64,000 nt of DNA from Clostridiales bacterium (GTDB taxonomy: Bacteria; Bacillota; Clostridia; Christensenellales; DTU072): the NCBI GenBank assembly GCA_012838805.1, contig DUON01000015.1, positions 872-64,871 on the forward strand, written 5' to 3'. This document shows positions 30,301-54,293 of this stretch, one piece after another (positions within the stretch are counted from its first letter, which is position 1; the number at the start of each line of letters is the position of its first letter). The notes below the pieces were generated by a model that was given only the letters and a program-made list of their open reading frames with translations, had not been told where the DNA came from and searched no databases. A program made the position numbers and the translations under genes.

Positions 30301-30691
30301 TTGACGGGAGCATAAAGCCTGCGAATATCTTATCGCGGTCAATAAACGCAAGCTTTTCAAAACATTTGGCGTCCATTTTTATTTGGGAGAAGATTTTCTT
30401 ATCCACTTTGTCTTTGCCTCTGCAAACAAGACTGGCGTCCTTATAGGACAGTTCAGCTGTGCCCGCCGCAAAGTCTCTGCGGACTGTGTATTCTTCATTG
30501 TTGTATTCGTACCTTAATTCCAGTCTGCCTTGAGTTTGCTCACCGCCAAAAAGAGCAAGAGAAAAGTACTTTATCAGCTCTTCAAGGTTATCGTTTTGTA
30601 AGGCGACAAGCTTGGCTGTTTGAGGCGTAAAATCGTACTTTTGACATTCATCATTAAAAATACCGTCTACGGATAAAAATAATGGGCGCAT
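27332..30691 (-). CDS. Rad50/SbcC-like coiled-coil protein with a CxxC zinc hook and degenerate ATPase motifs
   Basis: 1119 aa. The N-terminus MRPLFLSVDGIF...YDFT resembles the SbcC opening. Very long heptad-rich Glu/Lys/Leu arms flank a central EKCPICD. The positions expected for Walker A, the LSGGE signature and Walker B read QNDNLEEL, YKKED and LIFPLKE. Confidence 0.8.
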   Translation of the reverse strand: MRPLFLSVDGIFNDECQKYDFTPQTAKLVALQNDNLEELIKYFSLALFGGEQTQGRLELRYEYNNEEYTVRRDFAAGTAELSYKDASLVCRGKDKVDKKIFSQIKMDAKCFEKLAFIDRDKIFAGFMLPSKEREEFFKEFSEELLSGKDDIDTIEKRLEEKYQKTSWQLELIPDVDPKTLAMMKDDIKETKVIRQEAKTEFEELTKSILKGEEALKAQKELEEQKALLEKAFSLEPEIEELEARMQKSAQAQALALLIKRKEEIMQRDIELKEKIAALQSEIQALDANIEKGEKSSQKIEKVLIHCLERIKELRKLVYDNVEKLKADDQLQSKIRKGIDKYFEKDDQEMIGLVQRLEEIDREILATKNSVDDIEQRLFEIKRDPAVKKAIREGAALEAEIKKLSEIIAAAKNSMEMETKRLDVINSQLKAVDEELVQDKQKLESLQEKIKGQDLDEAIKKADDKKKYFYKNHIIVAAQQDEIEKIKQKIVENQEGIKEYEENLEAVNNAQESLKGHMQKLFENKQILQDKIVSVEIKLNYLKQNMELEYGEKCPICDNLVMSKKEEDAQKARELEEKLAKLNQEYQKALEYEQQYAQKLEGLNKRTGELEARIKISGVYIESLKQSILSKTNTIMNIYNESGVSENLELADKMNSAMNEYEALLSLANELKALEDKIKANEQRIAFYENEKKQLEEEVLPNTLQRYTLASESLEQAENRYKSIEANLGGVKAEERLEELALVEKESFTLEEDLSAKRKRLDDLIEEKQGLESLISAIKGRLNKVKIGDEEYDYTNLVMKTSGEYIGEVIEEIRKSEEEAEDIKVEYSAVKKVLEKYKSQRTEKTRELDALNARLSSDEEVLARIMTDYEGSLAALNVENTAELEKLQLKEDEKASIEKQIASYYQNIAVYKNNIERLEETINKYKEELEGLEENRKLYLNLSTKIEELGQKISDVYAHRKEMKSSAQQALALKDKLAKYQEKMDFLKEVKRILEKSGDIPDFIIKLASKKLYSLTKGRNNLDIANGSLVLIDNNNGGKVVERESYKKEDKMLMSFVLGTALNRTIIDMIGGENFMLIFPLKENETSKEIAYALTAYTKKRPLMVTVENAEILDSLTKTL
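29024..29035 (-). other. CPIC zinc-hook motif at the apex of the coiled coil
   Basis: Residues 553-556 of 1119, almost exactly mid-protein, in the context MELEYGEKCPICDNLV. Confidence 0.7.
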
Positions 30692-30921: not shown

Positions 30922-32655
30922 ATGTTTTTTTGCAAGTTAAGCCAAGGTTTTATCAATAACGGATATACCCTTGTCGAAAACGAATTCTTGCTTAGCCATA
31001 TGCCTGCGGCGGACGCCGTGGACATAAAAGTATATCTTTATGGCATGGCGATAGCAAATTCAGGACAGGAGAACAATTCTTTGGAAAAAATGGCGCTTGC
31101 GCTTAAGCTGTCCGAGGAGAGAATTCTTCAAGCATATAAGTATTGGCAAAAAATTGGTTTAGTGGACATCTCCGCGTCCTCTCCCCCCGTGATTTCTTAC
31201 AATCCCGTAAAACAAGCCCTTCCGCCCATAATCAAATATAAAAGCAAGGAATACTCTACTTTTGTGGAAGAGCTATATCGCCTTTTCCCCGAGGTGCTTT
31301 CTCCCAACTCCATAAACGAATTTGTAGACCTTATCAGCATAAATAAAATGGAAATCAACGCCATGCTGATGATAATAAAATACTGTGTTGACTATAAAGG
31401 CGAGAAAGTCAGCACGCCGTATATATTGTCGGTAGCCGACGATTGGATAAAAAAAGGTCTCACCACCGAAGAAAAAGTAAACGAGCATATTACAAATTTA
31501 GAAGCCAATTCCGAAGCCATACGGCAGATTTTCTCCACGCTGGGCGTAAAAAGGCAAGCGAATCTGGACGACAGACAGCTCTATGTCAAGTGGACCAAGG
31601 AATTTGGCTATAATCTGGACGCCATACTCACCGCCGCCCGAGCCTTAAAAAGAAGAGGCGGTATGCAAAGGCTTGATAGATATATGGACGAGCTCAAAAA
31701 CGCCAGTGCTTTCTCCGCTGTCGAAGTCGCCGAATACGCCAAGAACAAACAAGCTATATACGACCTTTCCATAAATGTGGTCAAAAATATCGGCGGATAC
31801 TATGCCTCAATGGATATCGTCATAGAGACCTATATCATTCCTTGGTTAAACAAAGGCTTTACCAGAGAAGCTTTGTTGACCATAGCCAAGTACTGTTTCC
31901 TAAAAAACATCAAAAATTTGGACGGTATGGAGCAAGTCGTAGAGAACTTTTATAAAATGGGGCTTTTGGATAAAGACAGTATCAATAATTATATAGAAAA
32001 GCAGATTGAAATCGACCAAAAAATCAAATCTATCTTTGAAAAATGCAATTATATGGGGCTTGTCACCAACCGTGACAGAGAATACTATCGCACTTGGATA
32101 GAATGGGGCTTTGACGACGAAATAATCTCCTATGTCGCCGACCTTGCCAAAAAGAACCCATTCCCCATACAGACCATGAACAGAAATTTAGGAATTCTCT
32201 ATCAAAATAGTATCAAAACCCTTGAAGAAGCAAAAGAGAAGCTTAAGACCCAAACAAAGGCACTTAAGCCTTCTTACACCCCAGGCGAGGAAGATTCTTA
32301 TATCTATAATTACAACAAAGCCTTGGAAATAATAAACAATAGACGAAATCTTGCCGAGCTTAAGGTCAAAAACACCTTGGACAAATTACGCAGCGATAAA
32401 GAGTTCTCCAAGCTTGAAAACAAAATGGGAGAGCTTAAGTTTGAAATAGCCAAAAGGGAAGCCCAAAACAAGAGTTTGGGCACCTTACCACAAGATTTTG
32501 AGCAAGTTGAAACAAAATACCTAAAGCGCCTTAAAGAGCTTGGACATACTCCAGACGACCTGCTCATAGAGTATTCTTGCAAGGAATGCAAAGACACTGG
32601 ATACATAAAAGGCAAAAAATGCAAATGCCTTATTGACTTGATTTATAATCAATAA
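30922..32655 (+). CDS. DnaD-domain / DnaB(Bsu)-type replication initiation protein with a C-terminal Cys4 zinc-ribbon motif
   Basis: 577 aa from MFFCKLSQG... (GGAAGGA SD). It has a winged-helix-like N-terminus and several DnaD C-terminal-type modules (YILSVADDWIKKGLTTEEKV, IIPWLNKGFTREALL, YRTWIEWGFDDEIISYV). It ends in a coiled segment and CKECKDTGYIKGKKCKC. Confidence 0.75.
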   Translation: MFFCKLSQGFINNGYTLVENEFLLSHMPAADAVDIKVYLYGMAIANSGQENNSLEKMALALKLSEERILQAYKYWQKIGLVDISASSPPVISYNPVKQALPPIIKYKSKEYSTFVEELYRLFPEVLSPNSINEFVDLISINKMEINAMLMIIKYCVDYKGEKVSTPYILSVADDWIKKGLTTEEKVNEHITNLEANSEAIRQIFSTLGVKRQANLDDRQLYVKWTKEFGYNLDAILTAARALKRRGGMQRLDRYMDELKNASAFSAVEVAEYAKNKQAIYDLSINVVKNIGGYYASMDIVIETYIIPWLNKGFTREALLTIAKYCFLKNIKNLDGMEQVVENFYKMGLLDKDSINNYIEKQIEIDQKIKSIFEKCNYMGLVTNRDREYYRTWIEWGFDDEIISYVADLAKKNPFPIQTMNRNLGILYQNSIKTLEEAKEKLKTQTKALKPSYTPGEEDSYIYNYNKALEIINNRRNLAELKVKNTLDKLRSDKEFSKLENKMGELKFEIAKREAQNKSLGTLPQDFEQVETKYLKRLKELGHTPDDLLIEYSCKECKDTGYIKGKKCKCLIDLIYNQ

Positions 32656-32693
32656 GGCATTTTATAACTTTTTCTTAATTATAAAAAATCTAT

Positions 32694-34361
32694 TTATTGA
32701 TCTTGTTCCAAAACTTCTTTTATCGCTTCTTTTTTAACGGGTCTGGAATCGCCATGTTTTACTAAAGCCATCAATACAACCGCTATGACAACGCTTATCG
32801 CCGAATAGGCAAAGAGCGCGGTGTCACCCAGTTTGTCCATAATTAGACCCGCGAAGAACGGCGTAACAGCCTGAGCGCTCATTGTGGCGACATAGTAGTA
32901 CCCTGTATATCTGCCCACCTGACTTTCGGGGGCAAGCTCTACCACCATGGGGAAGGTGTTGACATTGGCGATAATAAGTCCAAATCCCGAAATCAGATAG
33001 AATACGGCAAAGACATATTGTGCGTAAGAACTGGGTCTTATCCACAGCCAAATCAAAATATATGAAATTATCGCCATAACAAAGCCCACAATAACCGATT
33101 TTCTTCTTCCTATCTTTGTGGCAAGATATCCCACGGGTATAAAGGCTATCGCAGACACTCCCATACTGACGCCGGATATTATCGACGCCACGCCGGGGTC
33201 AAGGTTTAGCGTACGGGTAGTATATACTGAAAGGTTTGAGGTAACGGCGTTATAGCCGATAAACCACATAAATATCGCCGCTAAGATAAAGAAAAAGCTC
33301 ATCATTTTCTTTTTGTTTTCGACTTTGTCTTGAACGGTCAAGACAGCATCCTTTTCTTCTTTCTTAATTGCGTCTTCGTCGTTGTTTATACCGTATTCGG
33401 CACAGATTTCTTGACATTCTCTAACGAACTTGTTCTCATTGACCAAAATCAAAAAGACCGCAAGCAACAGCAGCATGCCTCCGCCCACGCATGCGAATAT
33501 ACCAATAAAGGGATTGCTGCTGATAAAAAATCCCACGGTATATATCACGAACGCCAAGGCGCCACCCACGCCTCCCATAAGGTTGATAATAGCGTTGGCG
33601 GGCGACCTCAAGGGCTTGGGCGTCACATCGGGCATAAGCGCCACAGCGGGGGAACGGAAAGTCGCCATGGACACCAGCACAAAGAACAAGATAATCATAT
33701 AGACCACCAGCCTTGAGATATTATGCTGAGTGATATTATCGTTGATTTGTTTGCTCATCCATGAATTGAAAGGCGAAACGCAAAAGCGCTGATAATCGGC
33801 ATTTTGGTCAAGATATGCCTTGGCTTGCTCGTCGCTCAATTGGTTGCCGTCTTTGTCATAATAAGTCTTTTTAATAAGACCTTTTGATTCCAATTCATAT
33901 TCCCCTTTCATGCCTATCTTTATAAATTTATTCTTATCAATATTGTTATTATTAAGATAAAGCTTGTCTCCAAAGTTTTCATAAATCTCTCCCCATTGCT
34001 CGACGGTCATCTGTTGAGTTATCTCTTCCCTTAAGGCGTTCGCTTCCTTAAGTTGGGTATTCGCCGATACGGGCACAAATATCATAAGCGCGACGGTGGC
34101 TACCGTGCCAAGCACAATGAAAGGGGTTCGTCTTCCAAACCTGGACTTTGTCTTGTCCGAAATTTTCCCGAATATCGGCAAAAGGAAAAGCGAAAGCAGA
34201 TTGTCCAAGCCCATAACCAGACCTCTCATGGCGTTGGAAAGTCCGAACGCCCTGTCCAAAAGATAGGGCACGACAAAATCATAGGCGGTCCAGAAAATCA
34301 TAATAATAGCAAATGCGAAACCTACCTTAATTGTCTTCTTGTAATCTAATTTTAGTTTCAT
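32694..34361 (-). CDS. MFS transporter (GPH/SLC45-like) with a large extra loop
   Basis: 555 aa. GKISDKTKSRFGRRTP is a motif-A-like loop after TM2. About 12 TM segments, plus a ~115-aa hydrophilic insert after TM3. Confidence 0.8.
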   Translation of the reverse strand: MKLKLDYKKTIKVGFAFAIIMIFWTAYDFVVPYLLDRAFGLSNAMRGLVMGLDNLLSLFLLPIFGKISDKTKSRFGRRTPFIVLGTVATVALMIFVPVSANTQLKEANALREEITQQMTVEQWGEIYENFGDKLYLNNNNIDKNKFIKIGMKGEYELESKGLIKKTYYDKDGNQLSDEQAKAYLDQNADYQRFCVSPFNSWMSKQINDNITQHNISRLVVYMIILFFVLVSMATFRSPAVALMPDVTPKPLRSPANAIINLMGGVGGALAFVIYTVGFFISSNPFIGIFACVGGGMLLLLAVFLILVNENKFVRECQEICAEYGINNDEDAIKKEEKDAVLTVQDKVENKKKMMSFFFILAAIFMWFIGYNAVTSNLSVYTTRTLNLDPGVASIISGVSMGVSAIAFIPVGYLATKIGRRKSVIVGFVMAIISYILIWLWIRPSSYAQYVFAVFYLISGFGLIIANVNTFPMVVELAPESQVGRYTGYYYVATMSAQAVTPFFAGLIMDKLGDTALFAYSAISVVIAVVLMALVKHGDSRPVKKEAIKEVLEQDQ

Positions 34362-34404
34362 AAAATAACTCCTAAAGGCGTTTTGCCTAAAATCATTCTA
34401 TATA

Positions 34405-34433
34405 ATTATAAGCCATGAAAGCCTATTTGTAAA
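34405..34433 (-). promoter_or_regulatory. Near-consensus sigma-A promoter upstream of the MFS gene
   Basis: Minus strand: TTTACA (34433..34428), a 17-nt spacer, then TATAAT (34410..34405). AGGAG lies upstream of the ATG at 34361. Confidence 0.6.
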
Positions 34434-34446
34434 TAAGAGAATTATT

Positions 34447-35247
34447 TTACAGCTCAAATATATAGTCGGTAGTGATATAATCCACTCCCGCCTCTACAAG
34501 CTCTTTGACCTTGTCTATATAGTTGACCGTCCATACATTGAGCGTCGCCGATTTCTTTTTTGCCATTTCAATAATGCTGTCGCTGACAATGTTCTGATTA
34601 ATTCCCACATTCTCCCCGTTATTAATTAATAATGTTGAAATAACCAGATTTGAGGACAAAGTTTGAACGGTTATGCTTGGGTCCACGCTTTTAATCTTTT
34701 GAATATTGCTCTGATGAAAGCTAATAAACTGGGTTCTTTCTAAAGGGAAGACGCTTTTCACAAACTCAATAAGCTCTTGTATCTCGTCTTGCTGGGGGGT
34801 ATATTTTAATTCTATAACCGCCATTTTGCCATACTGATAACAAATCTCAAGGTATCTTTCAAGGGAAACAAGCCTTATCCCCGTTGGGTCATGACCGTAT
34901 TTCTCGCTCTTAAGGGGCAGTGTCAAAGCATGTTCATAAGTAATATTAAAAATATTCATGCTCTCGTCCTCGAAGGGGTTGGCGTCATGGGCACAGACCC
35001 ATACCCCGTCCGCTGTCAGCCAGATATCCGTCTCTATCGCAAAGAAAAAGTCGCTTTTTGCAGCACTCAAAAATGCCTGTTCGCTATTTTCATAATATTC
35101 TGAACTGTGTCCTCTGTGAGCGATAAACTTGGTTCCCTCGGGTATCGTGAATTTATCTTTGGGCTGATACATCACCATACCAATAGATGCCGCCAGAATC
35201 AGTATTACAATCAAAGCTCCTACGGTCTTAAGAATCCTATTAAACAT
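34447..35247 (-). CDS. Membrane-anchored (extracytoplasmic) glycerophosphodiester phosphodiesterase
   Basis: N-terminal TM segment, then FIAHRGHSSEYYENSEQAF and FFFAIETDIWLTADG GDPD motifs. Confidence 0.85.
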   Translation of the reverse strand: MFNRILKTVGALIVILILAASIGMVMYQPKDKFTIPEGTKFIAHRGHSSEYYENSEQAFLSAAKSDFFFAIETDIWLTADGVWVCAHDANPFEDESMNIFNITYEHALTLPLKSEKYGHDPTGIRLVSLERYLEICYQYGKMAVIELKYTPQQDEIQELIEFVKSVFPLERTQFISFHQSNIQKIKSVDPSITVQTLSSNLVISTLLINNGENVGINQNIVSDSIIEMAKKKSATLNVWTVNYIDKVKELVEAGVDYITTDYIFEL

Positions 35248-35261
35248 ACGCTTTCCTTTTT

Positions 35262-36563
35262 TTAGTGTTGATTATGAAAGAATTCCCATAATTTTTGTTG
35301 CCATACGGCTATTTTTTTGTCGTCGTATTCGACAGGAATATCGTTCCCAAGGACTATCGCCTTTTGCATTCTATCGACCGCTTTTTTAAGGTTTAGCAGC
35401 AAGCCGATTCTGGGAAAGCCCGCGACAAGCTTTTTGAAGATATCTATAAACGACAATTTGACTGCGCCCCCGCTGCTGGACACCTCCATTTCCTTTTGGG
35501 AAATGATCCCTTTGTCGAATAAAAACGCAAGGTCCTCGCTCGGGGTTCTTAACAGCCATCTCTTTAAGGCGTCCACTCCCATATGACGACTACCCGCCTT
35601 ATACATAAACCTTACTTGATAGTTCCACAAGTTTTGTTTTTCCACTCCGCCTTTTATTATGGTTTCGGCAATCAGCCGTCCCGCAAACATAGAGCTGGCT
35701 ATCCCCGAGCCCAGCATGGGTATGGTCATAAAAGCGGCATCGCCAATGGCGGCATATCCGTCTGTGACCATTTTGGTAAGCGGATATCTTACGGGTATAG
35801 TGCAGATTTGTCCGCCATGTAAAAGCTTATCCCCCATGGAGGGATTGTCTTTTTTAAGCTCGTTCAGAGCATTGTCAAGAGTTTTCTTGTCCAGCTTGTC
35901 AATTCTTCCCACCAAGATATCAACTTCGCCCTCTATCTCATGCCTGCTCCAAGAAAGACCCTGCTCTCCCAAGTGCTTTAGGTAAGCTTTGCATTTATGC
36001 TCTATCTTGGCGTCTTTTCTTTCATAGAATCCCCTAAAGGCATAAAAAATATCCCCCGGATAGGGCTTTTGTTGGATATTAGAGGATTCAGGCAGAGAGG
36101 CTCTAAAAGCCGAAAGTGCGCCGCTGGAGTCTATGACCAAATCGGCTTTTATGTTCTTGCCTTTCACCTTTACGCCTTGAACCTTGTCGTCCTTTATCAA
36201 TAAGGAATCCACCTTGACATCAAAGAACATACTGCAATATTGCTTGGCTTTGTCAACCAGATACTTGGACAGCGCTCTTCTATGTATGCTCAAATCCCGC
36301 TCTCCTTTTATCGGCACAAAGAGAATGTTCTTTGCTTTGGGGATGACAAAAGACCAGTCGGATTTGGGGTGATAATGCTCTTTGTCGGGAAGAGGCAAGT
36401 CCAAATCCTTAAAAATCTGCGGTGCGACATCGTCATGCCAGTCATAGCTAAGCAAGTCCTCTTTTTCCTTTTCGTATAGACTGACCTCATAGCCGGCTTT
36501 GCCCAGCTCTGCCGCCGCTATTAAACCGCCGATTCCAGCGCCAATGATTACTATTTTACTCAT
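35262..36563 (-). CDS. FAD-dependent oxidoreductase (geranylgeranyl-reductase-like family)
   Basis: MSKIVIIGAGIGGLIAAAELGKAGYEVSLYEKE dinucleotide fold and a later GDAAFMT motif. Confidence 0.8.
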   Translation of the reverse strand: MSKIVIIGAGIGGLIAAAELGKAGYEVSLYEKEKEDLLSYDWHDDVAPQIFKDLDLPLPDKEHYHPKSDWSFVIPKAKNILFVPIKGERDLSIHRRALSKYLVDKAKQYCSMFFDVKVDSLLIKDDKVQGVKVKGKNIKADLVIDSSGALSAFRASLPESSNIQQKPYPGDIFYAFRGFYERKDAKIEHKCKAYLKHLGEQGLSWSRHEIEGEVDILVGRIDKLDKKTLDNALNELKKDNPSMGDKLLHGGQICTIPVRYPLTKMVTDGYAAIGDAAFMTIPMLGSGIASSMFAGRLIAETIIKGGVEKQNLWNYQVRFMYKAGSRHMGVDALKRWLLRTPSEDLAFLFDKGIISQKEMEVSSSGGAVKLSFIDIFKKLVAGFPRIGLLLNLKKAVDRMQKAIVLGNDIPVEYDDKKIAVWQQKLWEFFHNQH

Positions 36564-36575
36564 AAAAAATCCTCC

Positions 36576-37409
36576 TTAATGGACTAGTTTATATTCTTCC
36601 ATGGGATAAATATATCCCACAACCGGCAACATAGAATTATACACTTTTTCTATATCAAAAATGCCGTATTCCATACCTCCCTTTTTCTCCGAGCCCTTAT
36701 ATTCTCCTTGAAGAAGCACGGAATTAAGCTCCAAATCAGCTATAAACAACGCAATCTTTTGACCTTTTTCAATCTGCCTGAGCTCCTCTCCATAAGCCGA
36801 AAACGGTATGATTACTCTTCCACGGTCTTTCATAACCGATTGCAATACAGGTAAGAGTCTGGGAAACCCGTCCTTGTCAAAATACGATAAGAACTTAAGC
36901 GACATCATGTTCTTAAGCAACTTTACGCTGAGGTTAAATATCTTGTCCACGCCGTCCGAACAAGGTTTAACAAAAGGCTTGACCGCGCGTCCCCAAAGAG
37001 CGCCTTTTACTATACCGCCTATCGGCAAAGGCTGTTCTCCCGAAAAATTCACGACATCCATATAATGGATTTTTTCAATTCCAAAATACGAATTATACCT
37101 AAAAAGCGGCTGATTGTTGTACATGTCAAAGTCCTCGCCGGTGTCTGTGGCGCCCTTATACAGAGCCAGTCCCCGCCACCATTTTTTCTCAACGCTCACT
37201 ACCATGAATCCGCTTTTGGGATTTTTTTGGAGATTGGTCTTGCTAATGCCTTGCGTGAACTGTCCCCACATTATCGTTTTTTCGTCTTTTGCCTGTATCG
37301 ATGAAATAAGCGTGATATGGGGATATTCCCCGCTGACGGTTGATATAAGCCCCAATTTACCCGTTACGGCAAATTCTTTCATGTCCTTTTCACTGATTAA
37401 CTTTGTCAT
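36576..37409 (-). CDS. Two-domain PNPOx-like (FMN-binding split-barrel) protein
   Basis: 277 aa from MTKLISEK... (GGAGG 7 nt upstream). GKLGLISTVSGEYPHITLISS resembles pyridoxamine-5'-phosphate-oxidase-family barrels. Assigned by resemblance only. Confidence 0.55.
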   Translation of the reverse strand: MTKLISEKDMKEFAVTGKLGLISTVSGEYPHITLISSIQAKDEKTIMWGQFTQGISKTNLQKNPKSGFMVVSVEKKWWRGLALYKGATDTGEDFDMYNNQPLFRYNSYFGIEKIHYMDVVNFSGEQPLPIGGIVKGALWGRAVKPFVKPCSDGVDKIFNLSVKLLKNMMSLKFLSYFDKDGFPRLLPVLQSVMKDRGRVIIPFSAYGEELRQIEKGQKIALFIADLELNSVLLQGEYKGSEKKGGMEYGIFDIEKVYNSMLPVVGYIYPMEEYKLVH

Positions 37410-37411
37410 GA

Positions 37412-38335
37412 TTATACCTCCAACTTGGTCGCTCCCGACCAAACAGCGTTTTTATGATATTTTTTTGCCAAAGCCCAAAGCTTTTCTATCTTTTCCTTTT
37501 GGATAAGCTCCTTGTTTTCATAGCCCCAATCTCTATTCAACAACTGGTACTTATTCTTGCAAAGATTATTAAAGGTGACCAGCTCCCATTTAGTTATATT
37601 GGGCATATTTTCCTTAATAAACTTGCCTATTCCCTTTATGTTCTCCTCGCTATCCGTGCTGTCGGGAATTATCGGAGTTCTCACCCAGACTTCGGGTTTT
37701 TCAAGACTTCCCACTCTTTTGGCATTTTGCAGAATGAGTGTATTTTCCACATCGGTGAATTCTTTGTGCTTTTCGTTGTCGATATGTTTTATGTCATAGA
37801 GCAAGAGGTCGGTCTTTTCCAAAAGCTTTTGCAGAATCTTATAAGGATAGCATCCTGCGGTATCCAGCGCCGTATGTATGCCCCTTTTCTTAAGTTCATC
37901 CATAAGCTCATAAGCGTATTCCCAATGTAAAGCCGCCTCTCCGCCCGACAGCGTGACGCCGCCGCCGCTCTTTTCATAAAAAACCTTGTCTTTCAAAAGC
38001 TCATTTACAAGCTCTGATATCTCAATCTCACGCCCCTTTACCTCAATGGCGTTTGTCGGGCACTGCTCAGCGCACCATAAGCAGAAATTACAAAGCCTTT
38101 CTTCGAACTTTAGCCCGTCCTCATCAAAGGATATGGCTTTTTGCGGACACTCCAAACAGCTTAAGCACCCCATGCATTTATCTTTTATCCAATACTTTTG
38201 TCTATAAAAAGGAATGGATTCTGGATTTTGGCACCACTTGCATTTAAGGTTGCAGCCCTTAAAAAATACCGTAGTCCTTATTCCTGGTCCGTCCTCCGTC
38301 GACATCTTTTGTATATCTAAAATATAAGTCTTCAT
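37412..38335 (-). CDS. Glycyl-radical enzyme activating protein
   Basis: STEDGPGIRTTVFFKGCNLKCKWCQNPES (radical SAM cluster) plus CMGCLSCLECP and CNFCLWCAEQCP ferredoxin-type inserts, then the GGVTLSGGE SAM motif. Confidence 0.92.
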   Translation of the reverse strand: MKTYILDIQKMSTEDGPGIRTTVFFKGCNLKCKWCQNPESIPFYRQKYWIKDKCMGCLSCLECPQKAISFDEDGLKFEERLCNFCLWCAEQCPTNAIEVKGREIEISELVNELLKDKVFYEKSGGGVTLSGGEAALHWEYAYELMDELKKRGIHTALDTAGCYPYKILQKLLEKTDLLLYDIKHIDNEKHKEFTDVENTLILQNAKRVGSLEKPEVWVRTPIIPDSTDSEENIKGIGKFIKENMPNITKWELVTFNNLCKNKYQLLNRDWGYENKELIQKEKIEKLWALAKKYHKNAVWSGATKLEV

Positions 38336-38347
38336 ATTTTGCTTTCC

Positions 38348-40834
38348 TTAAAACTTGTTATGAATTTCTCTGGCTATGATTTCGTTTTGAAGCTCTCTTC
38401 CTATTGAAGCGAAATAGGCGTTGTATCCCGTCACTCTAACAAGCAAGTGTCTGTACTCCGAAGGATTTTTTTGAGCGTCTATCAGGGTGTCGGCGTCCAG
38501 CACATTTATTTGAAGCGCAGTGCCGCCGTTCTCCACATAAGCCCTTAAAAACGCCATAAGCTTTTGCTTGTGGATATCGTCCCTCAACAAGGACGGCGAA
38601 AGCGTTATGGTGTGGCTGGCACCGTTGGGAAGATAGTTTACATAATCCATAAAATCTCCGCCTTCTGCGACCTTTCCGCCCAGCGCCTTGCCTACCGAAT
38701 TGATGTTTGAGGTCGGACCGTTGGTGTCCGCACCGTTGCTTGGGCATATGGCGTTTGACAAAAACTGTCCACGCTTTCTTCCATCCGCACTTGCGGCAAG
38801 GATGTATCCGTCCCCCACCCAATAGTTCCAGCTCAGCATTCCCGGACGCAATTGGGCATCTGAAAGAGTGGTCTTATATTTCCAAACTTCCTCCGACCAA
38901 AGTTCCATAAACTTTCTTGCCATTTCGTCGGCTTCGTCGTCATCCCTTCCGTATTTGGGGGCTTTGTTTTTGGCGATTGCCTGAATCTTTTCGTATCCCT
39001 CCCAGTTATTTTTTAACGCCTCGACAAGCTCTTTCATTGAACAAATCTTTTTGTCATAAACCAAATACTTGATTGCAAGCAGACTATCCACGGTTGTGGC
39101 GAAGGTGACACCTTCCACCGTGACATACCTAAGCTCCGCTCCGCCTTGCGTTATGTCCTTAGCCTTGTCTATACATCCTTTGACAAGACAAGATAGGTAC
39201 GGAGTGGGATGATACTTCGCCCTAACGGTGTCGCTTTCGTCATAAAGACGCGCGATTTTCTCCACGATATAAGCCACTTGCTTTTCAAACGCCTTATAAA
39301 ATTCTTCGAATGTCTCAAACTTTTCAGGGTCGGGACTGTCCGAATGTTTTTTGGGGGGATTATATTTTCCCCACATCAAATCTTCATAACCGTTGAGGTC
39401 ATACCCTTTCCCCAAAGTAAGCTCCAAAGCCTTCAAAAGGTTGATATTGATATCCACCGTTCCCGAACGGTCGTTGCCCTGCATGGTGTTTTCCATACAG
39501 CCCACAGCGGCATAGTTCCATACGGTCTTTTCGTTAATGAAATGTTCCTTTCTGCTCTTTCTCGCCTGCCTTAAAAGTCCTGCCATCGCCCTTTCGTCAA
39601 AGTTCAATAAAAACGGCGCGCCTTGGCTTTCGGATATCATGTCCACAATTCTTTTCAAAAGCTTGTCGGGGGAATTCTTATGAAGACGCACATTGGGTTT
39701 GGGCTCAAGAATGGGGCTCATATCGTCTATGACATCCAATAGGATATAGCTCAATTCGTTTGTCAAGTCCTGACCTTGCTCTCCCTTTCCGCTAATCATA
39801 AACAACTGTCCAAACCCTGCGGTTATCCCTTGATTAGCACCCACTTTTATTTGGGCGTCATAAGCGGTGTTGCAGTGTACCCACATGCACTTCAAAATCT
39901 CCTTGGCAAATTCGTCCGTCATGCCTTGTTCTTTGGAAATCTTATAATAAGGATACAGATATTGGTCCAGCCTGCCAAATGACACGCCGGGTCCGGGATA
40001 GTTCTCGTCAGTCATGACCAGCATATGCGTAAGCCACAAGGACTGAACTGCCTGCCAAAAATCCTCGGCGGGATGATACGGCACTACTTCAAGGTTCTTG
40101 CTCATGGTCAATAGCTCCGCCTTTCTCTTTTTATCCTTTTCCTTTTCCGCAAGCTCCTTAAGCCGTTTGGAGTACTTTTCGGCAAGCTCGCAAGGCATAG
40201 TCGCCGCTATTCTCATTGCTCTAAGCTGACTGCCCTCGGCGCCTCTTTGTTGAGATTTTGTAAGACTTTGGTATTTCTTGTCAATCTCTTCTATGATGTA
40301 TTTGAAGCCCTTTTGCACAATGGTCGGATAGTCTGGGATAAGGTGTCCGCTTGTCGCCCCGCAGTTGCCGAATCCGCGGTCGTGAAATTCCAAAGTCCTC
40401 TTCCTCAAGCCGTTTTTGCCATAAAGTATCTTGGCTCTTTCTTTATTCTCTTTTTTGGTGTGGCAATGGCTTGCAAAAAGATTAAAGTTCGCACCGCAAA
40501 GCAGGTCTCCCGGGAGAATGTCCAAAGGAACTCTATTCACGATAGCCTCTTTAATAAACCAAGCCCGCCTTTCGGCTATACTCTTTTTATAAAAGTCTTG
40601 AGGAGCTTCAATTTTTCTGGCGATTTGGGGCAACCCACCCTTAAAGGTATTAAAAAAAGTGTATGTCTCGGGGACTATGTAATATGTGATTTCATTATAG
40701 ATTTCATCATGCTCCTCCCCAGTGGTGAAGACTTTGTACTCATTGTTCCAAGGTCTGTTGACACCTTCGAAGTAATAGTTTCTCAACCATTCAATTCTTG
40801 GCGTGAGGTTTTTTGGTTCTTTTATTTTGCCCAT
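38348..40834 (-). CDS. Glycyl radical enzyme (PFL2/dehydratase-like family), substrate unknown
   Basis: 828 aa from MGKIKEPKN... (AGGAGG 6 nt upstream). It has the C-terminal glycine loop LLVRVTGYNAYFASI and the thiyl loop AAVGCMENTMQG. Confidence 0.9.
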   Translation of the reverse strand: MGKIKEPKNLTPRIEWLRNYYFEGVNRPWNNEYKVFTTGEEHDEIYNEITYYIVPETYTFFNTFKGGLPQIARKIEAPQDFYKKSIAERRAWFIKEAIVNRVPLDILPGDLLCGANFNLFASHCHTKKENKERAKILYGKNGLRKRTLEFHDRGFGNCGATSGHLIPDYPTIVQKGFKYIIEEIDKKYQSLTKSQQRGAEGSQLRAMRIAATMPCELAEKYSKRLKELAEKEKDKKRKAELLTMSKNLEVVPYHPAEDFWQAVQSLWLTHMLVMTDENYPGPGVSFGRLDQYLYPYYKISKEQGMTDEFAKEILKCMWVHCNTAYDAQIKVGANQGITAGFGQLFMISGKGEQGQDLTNELSYILLDVIDDMSPILEPKPNVRLHKNSPDKLLKRIVDMISESQGAPFLLNFDERAMAGLLRQARKSRKEHFINEKTVWNYAAVGCMENTMQGNDRSGTVDININLLKALELTLGKGYDLNGYEDLMWGKYNPPKKHSDSPDPEKFETFEEFYKAFEKQVAYIVEKIARLYDESDTVRAKYHPTPYLSCLVKGCIDKAKDITQGGAELRYVTVEGVTFATTVDSLLAIKYLVYDKKICSMKELVEALKNNWEGYEKIQAIAKNKAPKYGRDDDEADEMARKFMELWSEEVWKYKTTLSDAQLRPGMLSWNYWVGDGYILAASADGRKRGQFLSNAICPSNGADTNGPTSNINSVGKALGGKVAEGGDFMDYVNYLPNGASHTITLSPSLLRDDIHKQKLMAFLRAYVENGGTALQINVLDADTLIDAQKNPSEYRHLLVRVTGYNAYFASIGRELQNEIIAREIHNKF
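38423..38437 (-). other. Glycyl radical motif RVTGY
   Basis: agagtgacgggatac on the minus strand, 25 codons before the C-terminus. Confidence 0.85.
39491..39502 (-). other. Catalytic Cys loop GCME
   Basis: ggctgtatggaa on the minus strand. The Cys-x-Glu arrangement resembles that of GRE eliminases and decarboxylases. Confidence 0.7.
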
Positions 40835-40844
40835 GACAAGCCTC

Positions 40845-41549
40845 CTAGTCATTAAATATTTTATAGAGTTTTTCTCCATGTGTGAGGATTTCCTCTAATA
40901 TTTCAGCCGCCCTTTCGCCGTCCTTTTGGCTTATGGCATCGGCGATTAGGCGGTGCTTTTCTACATATTCCTTAAAGCGCTCAATATTATTTTTATAAAA
41001 AATCTTGGTCATTTCAAGCGCAGTATCCTTAAAAGAGTTCATCACCGCGAAATAAACCATATTCCCAGACATCTTAATCAAGCGATAATGAAACTTAAAA
41101 TCATATTCTGCAAGTTTGTGATAATCTTTGCTGTTTTCTTTAACAAGCTTTTCTTCTCTTTCTATTACTTCAAAGAGTTCTTCTAAATCCTGCGGGTTGG
41201 CTGCGGCGTCTTTTACAGATTTCAGCTCAATAAGCAGCCTTGCCTCAAGGATATCCTTAGCCGCTTTTTTTCTTAATTTACAGTTTTGACACAGCGCCAT
41301 ATCCTTGACCGTATCCAAACTGCCTCTATTTATAAAATCATTGGTAATTGTCTTTTGTCTTTTTTGAACCAGCAGATACCCTTGCTCTTCCAACCGTGCT
41401 ATGCCCACATTTATAACGCTTCTGGAGCATTCAAACTCCTGTGCAAGCTTTCTAAGCGGAGGGAAACTGTCCCCAATTTTATATTCGCCGTTTAGTATCC
41501 TCTGCTTTATGGTATGTACAAACTTTTTAGTCAAATTTTCTTTTGGCAT
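40845..41549 (-). CDS. GntR-family transcriptional regulator (FadR/FCD-type C-terminal domain)
   Basis: IGDSFPPLRKLAQEFECSRSVINVGIARLEEQGYLLV winged HTH, with an all-helical C-terminal domain. Its stop codon lies inside the SD of the GRE gene. Confidence 0.9.
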   Translation of the reverse strand: MPKENLTKKFVHTIKQRILNGEYKIGDSFPPLRKLAQEFECSRSVINVGIARLEEQGYLLVQKRQKTITNDFINRGSLDTVKDMALCQNCKLRKKAAKDILEARLLIELKSVKDAAANPQDLEELFEVIEREEKLVKENSKDYHKLAEYDFKFHYRLIKMSGNMVYFAVMNSFKDTALEMTKIFYKNNIERFKEYVEKHRLIADAISQKDGERAAEILEEILTHGEKLYKIFND

Positions 41550-41563
41550 AAGCTGACCTTAAT

Positions 41564-41582
41564 ATTGTGGTATTACCACAAT
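41564..41582. promoter_or_regulatory. Perfect 19-bp palindrome ATTGTGGTA-T-TACCACAAT; candidate GntR operator
   Basis: 9-bp arms around one central base. The TGGTA..TACCA core fits the GT-N-AC logic of GntR/FadR operators. It abuts the -10 and covers the expected transcription start. Confidence 0.6.
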
Positions 41583-41609
41583 TATAACATATGCCAATTC
41601 TCCCGTCAA
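41581..41609 (-). promoter_or_regulatory. Sigma-A promoter of the GntR-GRE operon
   Basis: Minus strand: TTGACG (41609..41604), a 17-nt spacer ending in TGT, then TATAAT (41586..41581). Confidence 0.65.
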
Positions 41610-53555: not shown

Positions 53556-54293
53556 TTATTTTAATTTGGCGTCGGGTAGATAGATATCCCTATCCCCATC
53601 GCTTAAAATTATATTTTTAATTTCTATATTTGAGCTTCCCGTTCCTATCCTATCAAAAACCATAACAAAAAGGTCTATATCATGGTTCAAGGACATTCCC
53701 AAAGGCTTTGAATAATACAAAATACTAAAGCTTCCCTGACGAATAGACCTTAAGGATATCTCCCAATTTTCGATGCTTATGCGAATATCTTGACGGATTA
53801 AATTAGTGGTGTTATAGCTTATGTCCATCATCATTCCCTTGATGCCGGACAAATCCTCAATTTTCAGACTGGCTATGATGTCAAGCTTGTCTCCGTTTTC
53901 CTTTTCACGCAGTTGAATTCGAGCATTGGTTTCGATGTCAACGGCGTTTGTTACGATATAATTCCAAGGCGTGGTATAAAAGCCCATATATTTCGCTCTC
54001 ATTGATCTGGTCTCAGTGGGGCCCGTTGTGGTGGAGGTGTCAAACCCCTCCAGCATTGAGGGCAACACCCTTTCCACAATATCGCCTTTATTTTTTTTAA
54101 GCACAATTACAATATAAATGTTATTAAAGTCCAATTTTTCGTCCACAGCGTATACGGTCTTTAGGGAACCCTCTCTGAACTCAATATAATCTATATCATT
54201 TGGATTAATACCGCCTTTAGCGCACCCAAAAAACAAAAAAGCGGACATAGCCAGCAGTATGACAATCATCAATATATAACAGTGCTTCTTCAT
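53556..54293 (-). CDS. Lipoprotein with an Ig-like N-terminal module and a cohesin-like C-terminal module
   Basis: Lipobox LFFGC at residues 20-24. Residues ~30-115 resemble the Ig-like modules of the upstream giant protein. Residues ~120-245 form a beta-rich module (IIASLKIEDLSGIKGMMMDISYNTTNL ... DIDLFVMVFDRIGTGSSNIEIKNIILSDG) whose pattern recalls type I cohesins. Its ATG overlaps the upstream TGA (ATGA). Confidence 0.7.
   Translation of the reverse strand: MKKHCYILMIVILLAMSAFLFFGCAKGGINPNDIDYIEFREGSLKTVYAVDEKLDFNNIYIVIVLKKNKGDIVERVLPSMLEGFDTSTTTGPTETRSMRAKYMGFYTTPWNYIVTNAVDIETNARIQLREKENGDKLDIIASLKIEDLSGIKGMMMDISYNTTNLIRQDIRISIENWEISLRSIRQGSFSILYYSKPLGMSLNHDIDLFVMVFDRIGTGSSNIEIKNIILSDGDRDIYLPDAKLK

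What the first reader, a model, noticed from the sequence alone, without database searches (positions are those of the whole stretch)
32694..41609. Glycyl-radical-enzyme operon of unassigned function, with two flavoproteins, an exported glycerophosphodiesterase and an atypical MFS carrier
Seven co-directional genes are separated by only 2-14 nt, apart from 85 nt before the MFS gene, which also has its own TTTACA-17-TATAAT promoter. In order they are: a GntR/FadR regulator, a GRE (RVTGY glycine loop, GCME thiyl loop), an activase with two extra ferredoxin-type clusters, a two-domain PNPOx-like flavin barrel, a GxGxxG FAD oxidoreductase, a membrane-anchored GDPD and the MFS. The locus has no microcompartment shell genes, no small GRE subunit, no aldehyde or alcohol dehydrogenase and no pyrroline-5-carboxylate reductase. 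It therefore does not resemble the choline, propanediol, glycerol, hydroxyproline, HPAD or PFL loci I know. The first ~100 residues of the GRE and the GCMEN loop also look atypical, since I recall GCVEP-like loops in the dehydratases. An extracytoplasmic GDPD plus a transporter suggests that the substrate is an alcohol or head group released from a glycerophosphodiester, then processed by radical and flavin chemistry. That last step is speculation.
Basis: partly seen in the sequence, partly recalled or inferred. Interest (0 to 1): 0.72.

Follow-up and report, generated by a model that had tools for sequence, protein, structure and literature searches.

The report
Orphan glycyl-radical enzyme plus flavoprotein cassette
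The window carries a real, uncharacterised radical enzyme that in hundreds of anaerobic species always comes with its activator and a two-lobed flavin-type protein. The lipid-head-group genes beside it here are local additions, not part of the conserved unit.

Summary
The seven-gene operon exists as described. All genes are on the minus strand with gaps of 2-14 nt (85 nt before the MFS). There is a strong promoter, an internal promoter before the MFS and a terminal hairpin.

The glycyl radical enzyme (GRE) keeps the RVTGY glycine loop, a GCMEN Cys loop (CxE motif) and the His of the dehydratases. It fails every curated family cut-off. It forms its own clade: at least 58% identity within the clade, at most 36% to other GREs.

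The conserved unit is not seven genes. In more than 180 loci from more than five phyla it is GRE + activase + a tandem PNPOx-like split-barrel protein. A FadR/PdhR-type GntR repressor usually precedes it, with a conserved TGGTAWTACCA operator.

The geranylgeranyl-reductase-like flavoenzyme, the GDPD and the MFS occur only in close Christensenellales relatives. Homologues of the first and last are common without the cassette.

Accessory neighbours elsewhere include GlpK, a lactate-type MFS, D-2-hydroxyacid dehydrogenases, MMSDH and phosphoesterases. They hint at a small anionic C3 diol such as glycerol-3-phosphate or glycerate, but no substrate is proven.

A 2026 GRE review lists nothing like it. 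I rate it a new variant of a known kind, of moderately high interest.

The parts
41581..41609 (-). Operon promoter, TTGACG-17 nt-(TG)TATAAT
   Evidence: 11 of 12 matches, TG extension; sequence read.
41564..41582 (.). Operator. It is a perfect 9+1+9 palindrome, ATTGTGGTAATACCACAAT (TGGTnnnACCA box of FadR/PdhR-type GntR regulators), and overlaps the -10 element and transcription start.
   Evidence: It is the only match in the 64-kb window. The same box lies upstream of GntR or the GRE in 43 of 46 sites across related loci from several phyla.
40845..41549 (-). GntR-family regulator of the FadR subfamily (wHTH + FCD/FadR_C), the presumed autoregulated repressor of the cassette
   Evidence: Pfam GntR 1.3e-12, FCD 2e-19, FadR_C 1e-8. 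Nearest NCBIfam models are NanR, LldR, FadR and PdhR, all below cut-off. A GntR gene is recognisable directly upstream of the GRE in 18/27 and 38/84 loci.
38348..40834 (-). Glycyl radical enzyme, 828 aa, founding a distinct clade. Key residues are His164, Cys446-Met-Glu448 and Gly803.
   Evidence: PFL-like 1.1e-132 and Gly_radical 8e-23. All NCBIfam equivalogs are far below cut-off. Family conservation is shown.
39488..39502 (-). Cys loop GCMEN (CxE motif of eliminase/isomerase-type GREs)
   Evidence: V-G-C-(M)-E-N-T-M-x-G-N-D-R-S is nearly invariant in 75 family members.
38423..38437 (-). Glycyl radical loop RVTGY (Gly803)
   Evidence: invariant in the family.
37412..38335 (-). GRE-activating radical-SAM enzyme with CX3CX2C plus two CX2CX2CX3CP ferredoxin-type motifs
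   Evidence: TIGR02494 at 312 bits, above the 174 cut-off. Pfam Radical_SAM, Fer4_12 and Fer4. Motifs read.
36576..37409 (-). Tandem PNPOx-like split-barrel protein (277 aa), the obligate partner of this GRE. The N-terminal lobe keeps an S56-K57...N63-P64 motif of the FMN-phosphate type.
   Evidence: AlphaFold pLDDT 90.9, pTM 0.89. Foldseek matches each lobe to HupZ, FMN-binding protein, PNPOx-like proteins and F420 reductases. 42 of 45 homologues hit PF01243. It lies directly after GRE-AE in 26/27, 81/84 and 34/35 loci.
35262..36563 (-). FAD-dependent oxidoreductase, a distant relative of geranylgeranyl reductases. It is a lineage-specific passenger of the operon.
   Evidence: GxGxxG and FAD Rossmann hits. 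DGGGPL reductase model scores 161 bits against a cut-off of 580; GG-red-SF scores 95 against 159. It is next to the cassette only in the window, L075, L003 and L010. Homologues of 37-44% identity sit after cysS elsewhere.
34447..35247 (-). Glycerophosphodiester phosphodiesterase with an N-terminal membrane anchor or signal. The catalytic domain is predicted to be outside the cell.
   Evidence: Pfam GDPD 2.7e-20. HRGH and ETD motifs and an N-terminal hydrophobic stretch were read. It follows the cassette in the window, L002, L003, L004, L005 and L075 only.
34405..34433 (-). Internal promoter-like site TTTACA-17-TATAAT in the 85-nt gap before the MFS gene; it has no operator box.
32694..34361 (-). 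MFS transporter (555 aa) with a hydrophilic insertion of about 110 aa. It is a lineage core gene, not tied to the GRE.
   Evidence: Pfam MFS_1, MFS_2 and MFS_1_like. 28 genome loci carry homologues of 45-78% identity, and only 2 of them carry cassette genes.
32623..32662 (-). Intrinsic terminator (16-bp stem), shared with the convergent DnaB_2 gene

Best explanation
**Shown.**
- The functional unit is a compact, mobile, self-contained cassette: operator - GntR(FadR/PdhR-type) - GRE - activase - tandem PNPOx-like protein.
- The GRE is a new clade of the CxE (1,2-eliminase/isomerase) branch of glycyl radical enzymes.
- Its partner protein is as tightly linked to it as the activase is.

**Inferred mechanism.**
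1. The regulator sits on the TGGTAWTACCA box over the promoter until a small acidic effector binds.
2. The three-cluster activase installs the radical on Gly803.
3. Cys446 abstracts a hydrogen from a hydroxyl-bearing carbon of the substrate.
4. Glu448 deprotonates that hydroxyl. His164 (the acid that protonates the leaving OH in glycerol dehydratase) helps expel a vicinal hydroxyl. The product is a carbonyl compound.
5. The split-barrel protein, probably carrying one FMN in its N-terminal lobe, then carries out a redox step on that product, or possibly on the substrate.

**Most speculative step.** The substrate is a small, polar, anionic vicinal diol of the C3 family, most likely sn-glycerol-3-phosphate or glycerate. 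In this window the operon has additionally recruited an exported GDPD, a distant GGR-like flavoenzyme and, loosely, an MFS gene. These would feed glycerophosphodiester-derived glycerol-phosphate to the cassette. They are not part of the conserved machine.
For: **Cassette conservation.**
- GRE, AE and P4 (the PNPOx-like partner) are found together in 26 of 27 genome loci of at least 58% GRE identity.
- They are together in 81 of 84 loci seeded on P4 and in 34 of 35 metagenome loci with room upstream.
- P4 relatives occur in at least 566 genome stretches of the species-representative genome collection and at least 499 metagenome stretches.
- Flanking genes differ completely between lineages. There are 94 clusters of immediate co-directional neighbours, and no Pfam family appears in more than 4 of them.

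**Regulator.** The operator is conserved across phyla and is unique in the window.

**GRE chemistry.**
- The CxE motif, His164 and Gly loop are invariant.
- The roles of Glu and His are taken from the 2026 GRE review (PMC13450708).
- It is a distinct clade.

**P4.** The fold and family are established. An S-K...N-P motif and an invariant, flexible R104-Y-N-x-Y loop are seen.

**C3 / anionic-diol hint.** The accessory neighbours point the same way:
- GDPD in 6 Christensenellales loci
- an equivalog-level GlpK (720 bits) immediately upstream in 5 Syntrophaceae-type loci, with an L-lactate-type MFS (450 bits) and a D-2-hydroxyacid dehydrogenase downstream
- D-2-hydroxyacid dehydrogenase also in Caldisericota and other loci
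- CoA-acylating MMSDH (589 bits) adjacent in 3 contigs
- a 2H phosphoesterase divergent across the operator in Caldisericota
- PfkB/FGGY kinases

The regulator's box and nearest models resemble PdhR and LldR, which sense C3 acids. That resemblance rests on my own knowledge of those operators.
Against: - No substrate was tested. Each accessory neighbour is confined to one or a few lineages, so each association may be a single evolutionary event or chance synteny.
- ATP-dependent GlpK followed by a dehydration of glycerol-3-phosphate has no obvious energetic logic, and 3-phosphooxypropanal is not a known metabolite.
- Two other accessory enzymes point rather to hydrophobic or isoprenoid substrates: the GGR-like protein, and CrtI-family pairs that are under the operator in L140/L145.
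- The window's own P4 scores no Pfam hit, and flavin binding is only inferred.
- Flavin-dependent reduction of a simple aldehyde or ketone is unusual chemistry for split-barrel proteins.
- Active-site mapping rests on pairwise sequence alignments that shift by 1-2 residues between templates.
Confidence: 0.55

Rival explanations
1. All seven genes form one pathway. The exported GDPD releases an alcohol or head group from glycerophosphodiesters, the MFS imports it, and the GRE plus two flavoproteins degrade it.
For: - The genes are tightly spaced and co-directional, with one strong promoter and one terminator.
- The same seven-gene order occurs in the two closest relatives, L001+L075 and L003.
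- GDPD follows the cassette in 6 Christensenellales loci.
Against: - The GGR-like gene, GDPD and MFS are absent from the cassette in all other phyla and in L006, L007, L008 and L054.
- MFS homologues occur in 26 further genomes without any cassette gene.
- GGR-like homologues sit next to cysS/ftsH.
- The MFS has its own promoter and no operator box.
Confidence: 0.15
2. The PNPOx-like protein is not a pathway enzyme. It is a dedicated low-potential FMN electron carrier, a flavodoxin surrogate, that reduces the activase's clusters for glycyl-radical installation. The GRE alone performs the whole conversion.
For: - The gene always follows the activase directly, often with overlapping or very short spacing.
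- The fold matches the small electron-transfer FMN-binding protein of Desulfovibrio.
- The cassette needs no further enzyme in most genomes.
Against: - No other GRE family is known to need its own reductant (review).
- The tandem architecture has only one lobe keeping the phosphate motif. Together with an invariant, flexible R-Y-N-x-Y loop, this looks more like a substrate site than a simple carrier.
Confidence: 0.2
3. The GRE is simply a divergent B12-independent glycerol or 1,2-propanediol dehydratase, so its function is already known.
For: - His164 and the CxE Glu are kept, as in glycerol dehydratase.
- GlpK is adjacent in Syntrophaceae.
- The PFL2-3 subfamily model gives the best score.
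Against: - The subfamily score is 449 bits against a cut-off of 678.
- The residues that align with glycerol dehydratase Ser282, Tyr339 and Tyr640 are Gly, Gly and Leu (the significance of these positions is from my memory of the GD structure).
- No 1,3-propanediol dehydrogenase, aldehyde dehydrogenase or microcompartment genes are conserved with it.
- The obligate P4 partner is unknown in those systems.
Confidence: 0.1
4. A HypD-like dehydratase of another hydroxylated cyclic amino acid, whose cyclic imine product is reduced by the PNPOx-like protein acting as a flavin imine reductase.
For: - The best equivalog-level and structural matches of both the GRE and the AE are HypD and its activase.
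- PNPOx-type enzymes interconvert amines and imines (my knowledge).
- The regulator class senses carboxylates.
Against: HypD Asp278, Asp339, Phe340, Tyr450 and Thr645 align with Pro, Gln, Leu, Asn and Trp. No amino-acid transporters or racemases are enriched nearby.
Confidence: 0.1

Closest known systems
trans-4-hydroxy-L-proline dehydratase HypD and its activase (PDB 6VXC/6VXE)
   Same: Best-scoring solved structure (340 bits) and best equivalog models for both GRE and AE. Shares the CxE Cys loop, the essential His (HypD His160 = His164 here), the Gly loop and a three-cluster activase.
   Different: Scores 428 bits against a cut-off of 1100. Asp278, Asp339, Phe340, Tyr450 and Thr645 are not conserved. 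The partner is a PNPOx-like protein, not a P5C reductase.
B12-independent glycerol dehydratase (PDB 1R8W/1R9D) and 1,2-propanediol dehydratase
   Same: Same branch (PFL2-3 subfamily is the best model). The Glu/His pair proposed to drive direct elimination of a vicinal hydroxyl is kept.
   Different: Below the subfamily cut-off (449 against 678). Pocket residues differ. There is no 1,3-PDO dehydrogenase or microcompartment context. The N-terminal ~160 residues are family-specific.
DHPS-converting GREs HpfG (dehydratase) and HpsG / IslA (C-S lyases)
   Same: They act on anionic C3/C2 hydroxy compounds. These are the closest chemical analogy for a glycerol-3-phosphate or glycerate dehydratase. 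Scores are 367-393 bits.
   Different: Of the Arg-Gln-Arg triad that anchors the sulfonate, the two positions that could be aligned are not kept: HpsG Arg183 and Gln187 align with Ala160 and His164. The third (Arg672) could not be aligned reliably. Cut-offs of 1000 are not reached.
PFL2 of Archaeoglobus fulgidus (PDB 2F3O), a GRE of unknown function
   Same: 311 bits. Shares local signatures absent from HypD and GD (ENY...S-x-GR-x-DQYLYP; Y-x-N-LPNGAS-x-TI-x-LS).
   Different: Only distant overall. The Cys loop is GCVEI. No PNPOx-like partner is known for it. Its function is unknown, so it gives no functional transfer.
PNPOx-like / FMN-binding split-barrel proteins (PF01243; HupZ, Desulfovibrio FMN-binding protein, F420-dependent reductases, PhdC)
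   Same: Each lobe of the 277-aa protein superposes on these (TM 0.5-0.78 normalised to the target). Homologues hit PF01243.
   Different: It is a fused tandem of two barrels in one chain, with family-specific invariant motifs (RYNxY, VYNSMxP). It is strictly linked to a GRE. The cofactor has not been established.
FadR-subfamily GntR regulators PdhR / LldR / GlcC
   Same: wHTH + FCD architecture. The palindromic TGGTnnnACCA-type operator overlaps the promoter of its own operon.
   Different: All equivalog scores are far below cut-off (40-77 bits against 241-396). The effector is unknown.

Membership tests
Glycyl radical enzyme superfamily | PFL-like barrel plus C-terminal glycyl radical domain with an RVxG loop | tested here: met
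   PF02901 1.1e-132, PF01228 8e-23. RVTGY at 38423-38437.
Glycyl radical enzyme superfamily | Catalytic Cys on the Cys loop and a cognate radical-SAM activase encoded nearby | tested here: met
   GCMEN. The adjacent activase passes TIGR02494 (312 bits against 174).
Glycyl radical enzyme superfamily | Formation of a stable glycyl radical | not testable with these tools
   Needs anaerobic activation and EPR.
GRE 1,2-eliminase / isomerase class | [quoted passage not shown] | tested here: met
   C446-M-E448 is invariant in 75 members. The definition is from PMC13450708.
HypD (trans-4-hydroxy-L-proline dehydratase) | NCBIfam equivalog NF043068, cut-off 1100 bits | tested here: not met
   428 bits.
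HypD (trans-4-hydroxy-L-proline dehydratase) | Substrate residues Asp278, Ser334, Asp339, Phe340, Tyr450 and Thr645 | tested here: not met
   They align with Pro282, Thr338, Gln343, Leu344, Asn463 and Trp669. Only His160/His164 and the CxE motif are kept.
Choline TMA-lyase CutC | TIGR04394, cut-off 1050 bits | tested here: not met
   346 bits.
DHPS dehydratase / sulfolyases (HpfG, HpsG, IslA) | Equivalog cut-offs of 1000 bits; Arg-Gln-Arg sulfonate anchor | tested here: not met
   393 and 367 bits. HpsG Arg183 and Gln187 align with Ala160 and His164.
PFL2-3 / glycerol dehydratase subfamily (TIGR01774) | Subfamily cut-off of 678 bits | tested here: not met
   449 bits, with the match starting only at residue ~175 of the ORF.
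PNPOx-like FMN-binding split barrel (PF01243) | Sequence match to the family model | tested here: inconclusive
   The window protein has no hit at E of 0.01 or better. 42 of 45 homologues hit, with a best E-value of 4.5e-14.
PNPOx-like FMN-binding split barrel (PF01243) | Split-barrel fold | tested here: met
   AlphaFold pLDDT 90.9. Foldseek probability 1.0 to HupZ, 3IN6, 2HTD and the FMN-binding protein for each lobe.
PNPOx-like FMN-binding split barrel (PF01243) | Bound FMN (or F420 or haem) | not testable with these tools
   Only the S56-K57...N63-P64 motif in the N-lobe suggests it.
Geranylgeranyl reductase family | TIGR02032 cut-off of 158.8 bits; DGGGPL reductase NF041080 cut-off of 580 bits | tested here: not met
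   95 and 161 bits. Sources name the homologues only 'NAD(P)/FAD-dependent oxidoreductase'.
GDPD (glycerophosphodiester phosphodiesterase) | PF03009 gathering score | tested here: met
   73.9 bits against 23.6. The equivalog PRK09454 is not reached (49 against 264).
GntR family, FadR subfamily | N-terminal GntR wHTH plus C-terminal FCD domain; palindromic t.GT...AC.a operator | tested here: met
   PF00392 and PF07729 are above cut-off. The operator is conserved across loci. DNA binding itself was not tested.

The most novel reading that the evidence does not exclude
This is a new functional class of glycyl radical enzyme whose chemistry is obligatorily coupled to a flavoprotein. One possibility is a radical dehydration of glycerol-3-phosphate, or another anionic C3 diol, followed by an FMN-dependent redox step. 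Another is a reductive, RNR-like dehydroxylation in which the split-barrel protein supplies the electrons. Either would give fermenting and syntrophic anaerobes in methanogenic habitats a quinone-independent route for phospholipid- or teichoic-acid-derived glycerol-phosphate.
Probability: 0.2. Interest if true: 0.8.

Novelty: new variant of a known kind. Interest (0 to 1): 0.62.

Why it matters
Glycyl radical enzymes carry out some of the hardest reactions of anaerobic metabolism. Each newly assigned family (CutC, HypD, IslA, YbiW) has opened a pathway of ecological or medical weight.

This family is present in at least several hundred species across Bacillota, Spirochaetota, Chloroflexota, Thermodesulfobacteriota, Caldisericota and others, in digesters, sediments, peat and termite guts. 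It is very strongly conserved, at 58-85% identity across phyla. It has a partner type, a tandem PNPOx-like protein, that no described GRE system uses.

The analysis reduces the problem to a well-defined four-gene unit with a conserved operator. That makes the question experimentally tractable: screen the regulator for its ligand, then assay the enzyme. It also corrects the tempting but unsupported seven-gene pathway reading.

Tried and rejected
- **TRAP transporter upstream.** I first guessed that the four upstream genes (448/180/423/747 aa) were a TRAP transporter. Reading their homologues' sequences, they look like CCA-adding enzyme, Hpt and TilS; Pfam confirms the fourth as SpoIIE.
- **A universal accessory gene.** I looked for a transporter or downstream enzyme shared by all loci. 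I clustered neighbours in 27, then about 100, then about 180 loci, and summarised 94 neighbour clusters with Pfam. Nothing recurs beyond single lineages.
- **GGR-like and MFS as cassette followers.** Their homologues mostly live elsewhere.
- **Regulon expansion through the operator.** Within the loci held, the box is confined to the cassette promoter. Two Desulfomonilia-type loci (L140, L145) are exceptions, where it precedes two CrtI-family genes. One Caldisericota locus has a second site.
- **Literature.** Searches for a GRE with a PNPOx or flavin partner, with geranylgeranyl reductase, or with glycerol-3-phosphate found nothing relevant. The 2026 review lists no such enzyme.
- **Phosphonate / C-P lyase idea.** This was prompted by D-2-hydroxyacid-dehydrogenase neighbours and by a locus from the Phox-21 MAG. 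It was dropped because those dehydrogenases score as glyoxylate/hydroxypyruvate-reductase-like and there is no anion-anchoring Arg pair.
- **PilZ-like reading of P4.** Foldseek hits to MotI, PlzA and VCA0042 were rejected. Their TM-scores are 0.24-0.28 with rmsd 16-19 Å, and I saw no RxxxR / DxSxxG motifs on reading the sequence.
- **Not attempted.** I did not model the GRE, because the tools return no coordinates, so active-site geometry could not be inspected.

Full report
**1.

ORF listing and translation show seven co-directional genes on the minus strand:
- GntR, 40845-41549
- GRE, 38348-40834
- activase, 37412-38335
- a 277-aa protein, 36576-37409
- a 433-aa FAD protein, 35262-36563
- GDPD, 34447-35247
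- MFS, 32694-34361

The longest ORFs of the GRE and of the 277-aa protein overlap their upstream neighbours.

The consensus scan finds three signals:
- TTGACG-17-TATAAT (TG-extended) at 41609-41581, before GntR
- a 16-bp hairpin terminator at 32662-32623

Pfam and NCBIfam confirm every domain assignment except the 277-aa protein, which has no hit of its own. GCMEN and RVTGY are at 39488-39502 and 38423-38437.

Upstream are housekeeping genes: cca, hpt and tilS (recognised by reading their homologues' sequences) and spoIIE (Pfam). Downstream is a convergent DnaB_2 replication gene. Identical copies of the operon come from biogas-fermenter metagenomes. The nearest genomes are Christensenellales MAGs.

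**2. The GRE is a clade of its own**

- All 120 best database relatives are 63-100% identical and 823-858 aa long, apart from one 774-aa partial sequence. They score 1229-1933 bits and carry only generic names.
- In one genome per species, 27 loci encode relatives of 58-85% identity, from Christensenellales, other Clostridia, Spirochaetota, Brachyspira, Anaerolineae/Chloroflexota and Syntrophaceae. The next-best GREs drop to 36% or less.
- The best solved structures are HypD (340 bits), glycerol dehydratase (321), A. fulgidus PFL2 (311), CutC (294) and HpsG (287).
- Every NCBIfam equivalog is missed by a wide margin. HypD scores 428 against 1100, HpsG 393 against 1000, and CutC 346 against 1050. 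The PFL2-3 subfamily scores 449 against 678.
- A 75-member family alignment shows near-invariant, family-specific signatures around the presumed active site. These are G-x-G-N-x-G-x-T-S-G-H164, D-E-N-Y-P-G-P-G-x-S-F-G-R, G-I-T-x-G-x-G-Q-L, V-G-C446-M-E448-N-T-M-x-G-N-D-R-S-G-T-V-D-x-N and R-P-G-M-L-S-W-N-Y-W.
- Mapped on pairwise alignments and on the published HypD analysis (PMC7077986), His160 of HypD (His164 of glycerol dehydratase) and the CxE Glu are kept. HypD Asp278, Asp339, Phe340, Tyr450 and Thr645 are not. Arg183 and Gln187 of the Arg-Gln-Arg sulfonate anchor of the C-S lyases are not kept either, and the third Arg could not be aligned reliably.
- The June 2026 GRE review lists all characterised eliminases and isomerases (GD, PD, HpfG, HypD, HpyG, HpzG, CutC, IslA/IseG, HpsG, HplG, YbiW, PflD). 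It mentions no flavoprotein-coupled GRE.

The CxE plus His pair argues for eliminase/dehydratase-type chemistry with a hydroxyl leaving group. This is an inference from the roles given.

**3. The conserved unit is four genes, not seven**

- tblastn of the window proteins against the 27 family loci shows GRE, activase and the 277-aa protein (P4) together in every locus that is long enough. GntR is recognisable upstream in 18 of them. The GGR-like gene, GDPD and MFS appear only in the nearest relatives.
- Pfam-annotated contigs of four distant members show GntR-GRE-AE-P4 embedded in wholly different surroundings. These include ribosomal genes, fatty-acid synthesis, a tRNA synthetase, ABC transporters and IS elements.
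- Seeding on P4 gave at least 566 matching stretches in the species-representative genome collection and at least 499 in metagenomes. The GRE lies directly upstream in 81 of 84 and in 34 of 35 loci with room.
- Immediate co-directional neighbours from about 180 loci fall into 94 clusters. No Pfam family occurs in more than four clusters.
- Conversely, GGR-like homologues (37-44% identity) lie after cysS/ftsH in other Christensenellales and other Clostridia, with no cassette gene nearby. They form a large family named only 'NAD(P)/FAD-dependent oxidoreductase'.
- MFS homologues (45-54% identity) occur in 26 genomes without any cassette gene.

It fails for the PNPOx-like protein.

**4. A conserved operator defines the regulon**

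A perfect palindrome, ATTGTGGTAATACCACAAT, overlaps the -10 box of the GntR promoter at 41582-41564. The core (G/C)TGGTAWTACCA(C/G) recurs immediately upstream of GntR, or of the GRE where GntR lies downstream, in loci from Bacillota, Thermodesulfobacteriota, Spirochaetota, Chloroflexota and Caldisericota. With a strict pattern, 43 of 46 sites are in that position.

It is the only match in the 64-kb window even with two mismatches allowed. A single match is not itself above chance, since 40 of 100 shuffles give at least one. The significance comes from its position and its conservation. There is no box at the MFS promoter.

The box type (TGGTnnnACCA) and the nearest regulator models (NanR, LldR, FadR, PdhR, GlcC) belong to regulators of small carboxylic acids. 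The operator comparison rests on my own knowledge.

**5. The partner protein**

- P4 homologues are all about 272-296 aa, with no fusions among the best 120 hits.
- 42 of 45 hit PF01243.
- A profile search touches HupZ and PNPOx-like structures separately with its two halves.
- The AlphaFold model is confident (pLDDT 90.9, pTM 0.89) and shows two split barrels.
- Foldseek matches single lobes to HupZ, a Syntrophomonas FMN-binding protein, PNPOx-like proteins, F420 reductases, the Desulfovibrio FMN-binding protein and the prFMN maturase PhdC.
- The N-lobe keeps W-G-Q-F-x-x-G-x-S56-K57-x5-N63-P64, the kind of motif that binds the FMN phosphate in this superfamily (my knowledge). The C-lobe lacks it.
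- Invariant R104-Y-N-x-Y lies in the only low-confidence loop.

Cofactor and activity remain untested. I rate 'pathway redox enzyme' above 'dedicated electron donor for the activase', but the data do not exclude the latter.

**6. What the substrate might be**

Lineage-specific neighbours are the only clue:

| Neighbour | Where |
|---|---|
| Exported GDPD | window clade, 6 of about 10 Christensenellales-type loci |
| Equivalog-level glycerol kinase directly upstream, L-lactate-type MFS and glyoxylate/hydroxypyruvate-reductase-like dehydrogenase downstream | Syntrophaceae-type loci |
| Similar D-2-hydroxyacid dehydrogenases | Caldisericota and two further contigs |
| CoA-acylating methylmalonate/malonate-semialdehyde dehydrogenase; an RpiB-like protein in two of them | three contigs |
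| 2H phosphoesterase, divergent across the operator | Caldisericota |
| PfkB/FGGY kinases | several lineages |

GDPD and GlpK both make sn-glycerol-3-phosphate. The dehydrogenase, transporter and MMSDH fit C3 hydroxy- or oxo-acids. The known C3 GREs (GD, PD, HpfG/HpsG) are among the nearest relatives.

I therefore favour an anionic C3 vicinal diol, glycerol-3-phosphate or glycerate, as the working hypothesis. Each association may be a single event. The energetic logic of GlpK followed by dehydration is poor.

A second, conflicting hint exists. FAD enzymes of isoprenoid-type families join the cassette in three or more lineages. These are the GGR-like protein here, and CrtI-family genes that are under the operator in L140/L145 and lie downstream of P4 in L234, L237 and L257.

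**7. Verdict**

- The operon is real and correctly described.
- The GRE is a genuinely uncharacterised, widespread clade.
- The conserved machine is GntR-GRE-activase-tandem PNPOx-like protein, with a conserved operator.
- GGR-like, GDPD and MFS are local recruits, or mere neighbours.
- It is a new variant of a known kind. The interest lies in the obligate flavoprotein partner, the breadth of distribution and the clear experimental path.

Noticed in passing
L136, L148, L166, L174, L228, L254 (e.g. L166:10831-13209): In several Deltaproteobacteria/Desulfomonilia-type loci a second, different GRE (789-794 aa) follows P4 directly, with no second activase beside it. It scores 623 bits on PFL2-3 against a cut-off of 678 and belongs to no equivalog. 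L118 carries a further GRE-AE pair on the opposite strand.
   Followed up: partly
L140:2139-5405, L145:1940-; also L234:2301-3848, L237, L257: Two tandem CrtI/phytoene-desaturase-family FAD enzymes (TIGR02734, 314 bits against a cut-off of 238) lie between the conserved operator and GntR. They therefore belong to the same regulon in those lineages. Related genes lie just downstream of P4 in three metagenome contigs.
   Followed up: partly
L117, L129, L142, L152, L205 (e.g. L117:1388-8736): In Syntrophaceae-type loci the order is glpK - GRE - AE - P4 - L-lactate-type MFS (SfMCT model, 450 bits against a cut-off of 320), with no recognisable GntR. L138 and L142 add a D-2-hydroxyacid dehydrogenase.
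   Followed up: partly
L150:3264-5494, L156:1765-2400, L211: In Caldisericota a 2H (LigT-like) phosphoesterase is transcribed divergently from GntR across the operator. L150 has a second operator copy in front of a split hybrid-cluster-protein (Prismane) gene.
   Followed up: partly
L067-L074 (e.g. L067:6591-9293): Homologues of the window's GGR-like flavoenzyme sit in a conserved ftsH - (cysE) - cysS - GGR-like arrangement in other Christensenellales and other Clostridia. The family is very abundant in gut and rumen data (clusters of up to 1745 sequences) and has no assigned function.
   Followed up: partly
window 32694-34361: The MFS protein carries a hydrophilic insertion of about 110 residues between its N-terminal helices and the rest. 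Homologues across Christensenellales-like genomes (45-78% identity) match nearly the full length of the protein, insertion included. Its substrate is unknown.
   Followed up: no
window 54290-61243 and 27332-30691: There is a 2317-aa protein with RCC1 repeats, Big_2/Big_3 domains and a weak M6 peptidase match. There is also an 1119-aa ORF without any Pfam hit, in a stretch with strongly negative AT skew (-0.33).
   Followed up: no
window 38001-40000: The GRE gene is slightly richer in G+C (0.455) than the window average (~0.41). Together with 58-65% protein identity across phyla and unrelated flanks in every lineage, this suggests that the cassette moves horizontally.
   Followed up: no
L112 (MPOS01000014.1): One cassette-bearing genome is the 'Deltaproteobacteria bacterium Phox-21' MAG. 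From memory, this is the phosphite-oxidising Candidatus Phosphitivorax. No link to phosphite genes was seen in the 20 kb held.
   Followed up: no
L021:6069-7247: A PI-PLC-X-like phosphodiesterase (identified by eye only) lies four genes upstream of the cassette in a Bacillota MAG. In that MAG, GntR sits downstream of P4 and the operator sits directly before the GRE.
   Followed up: no
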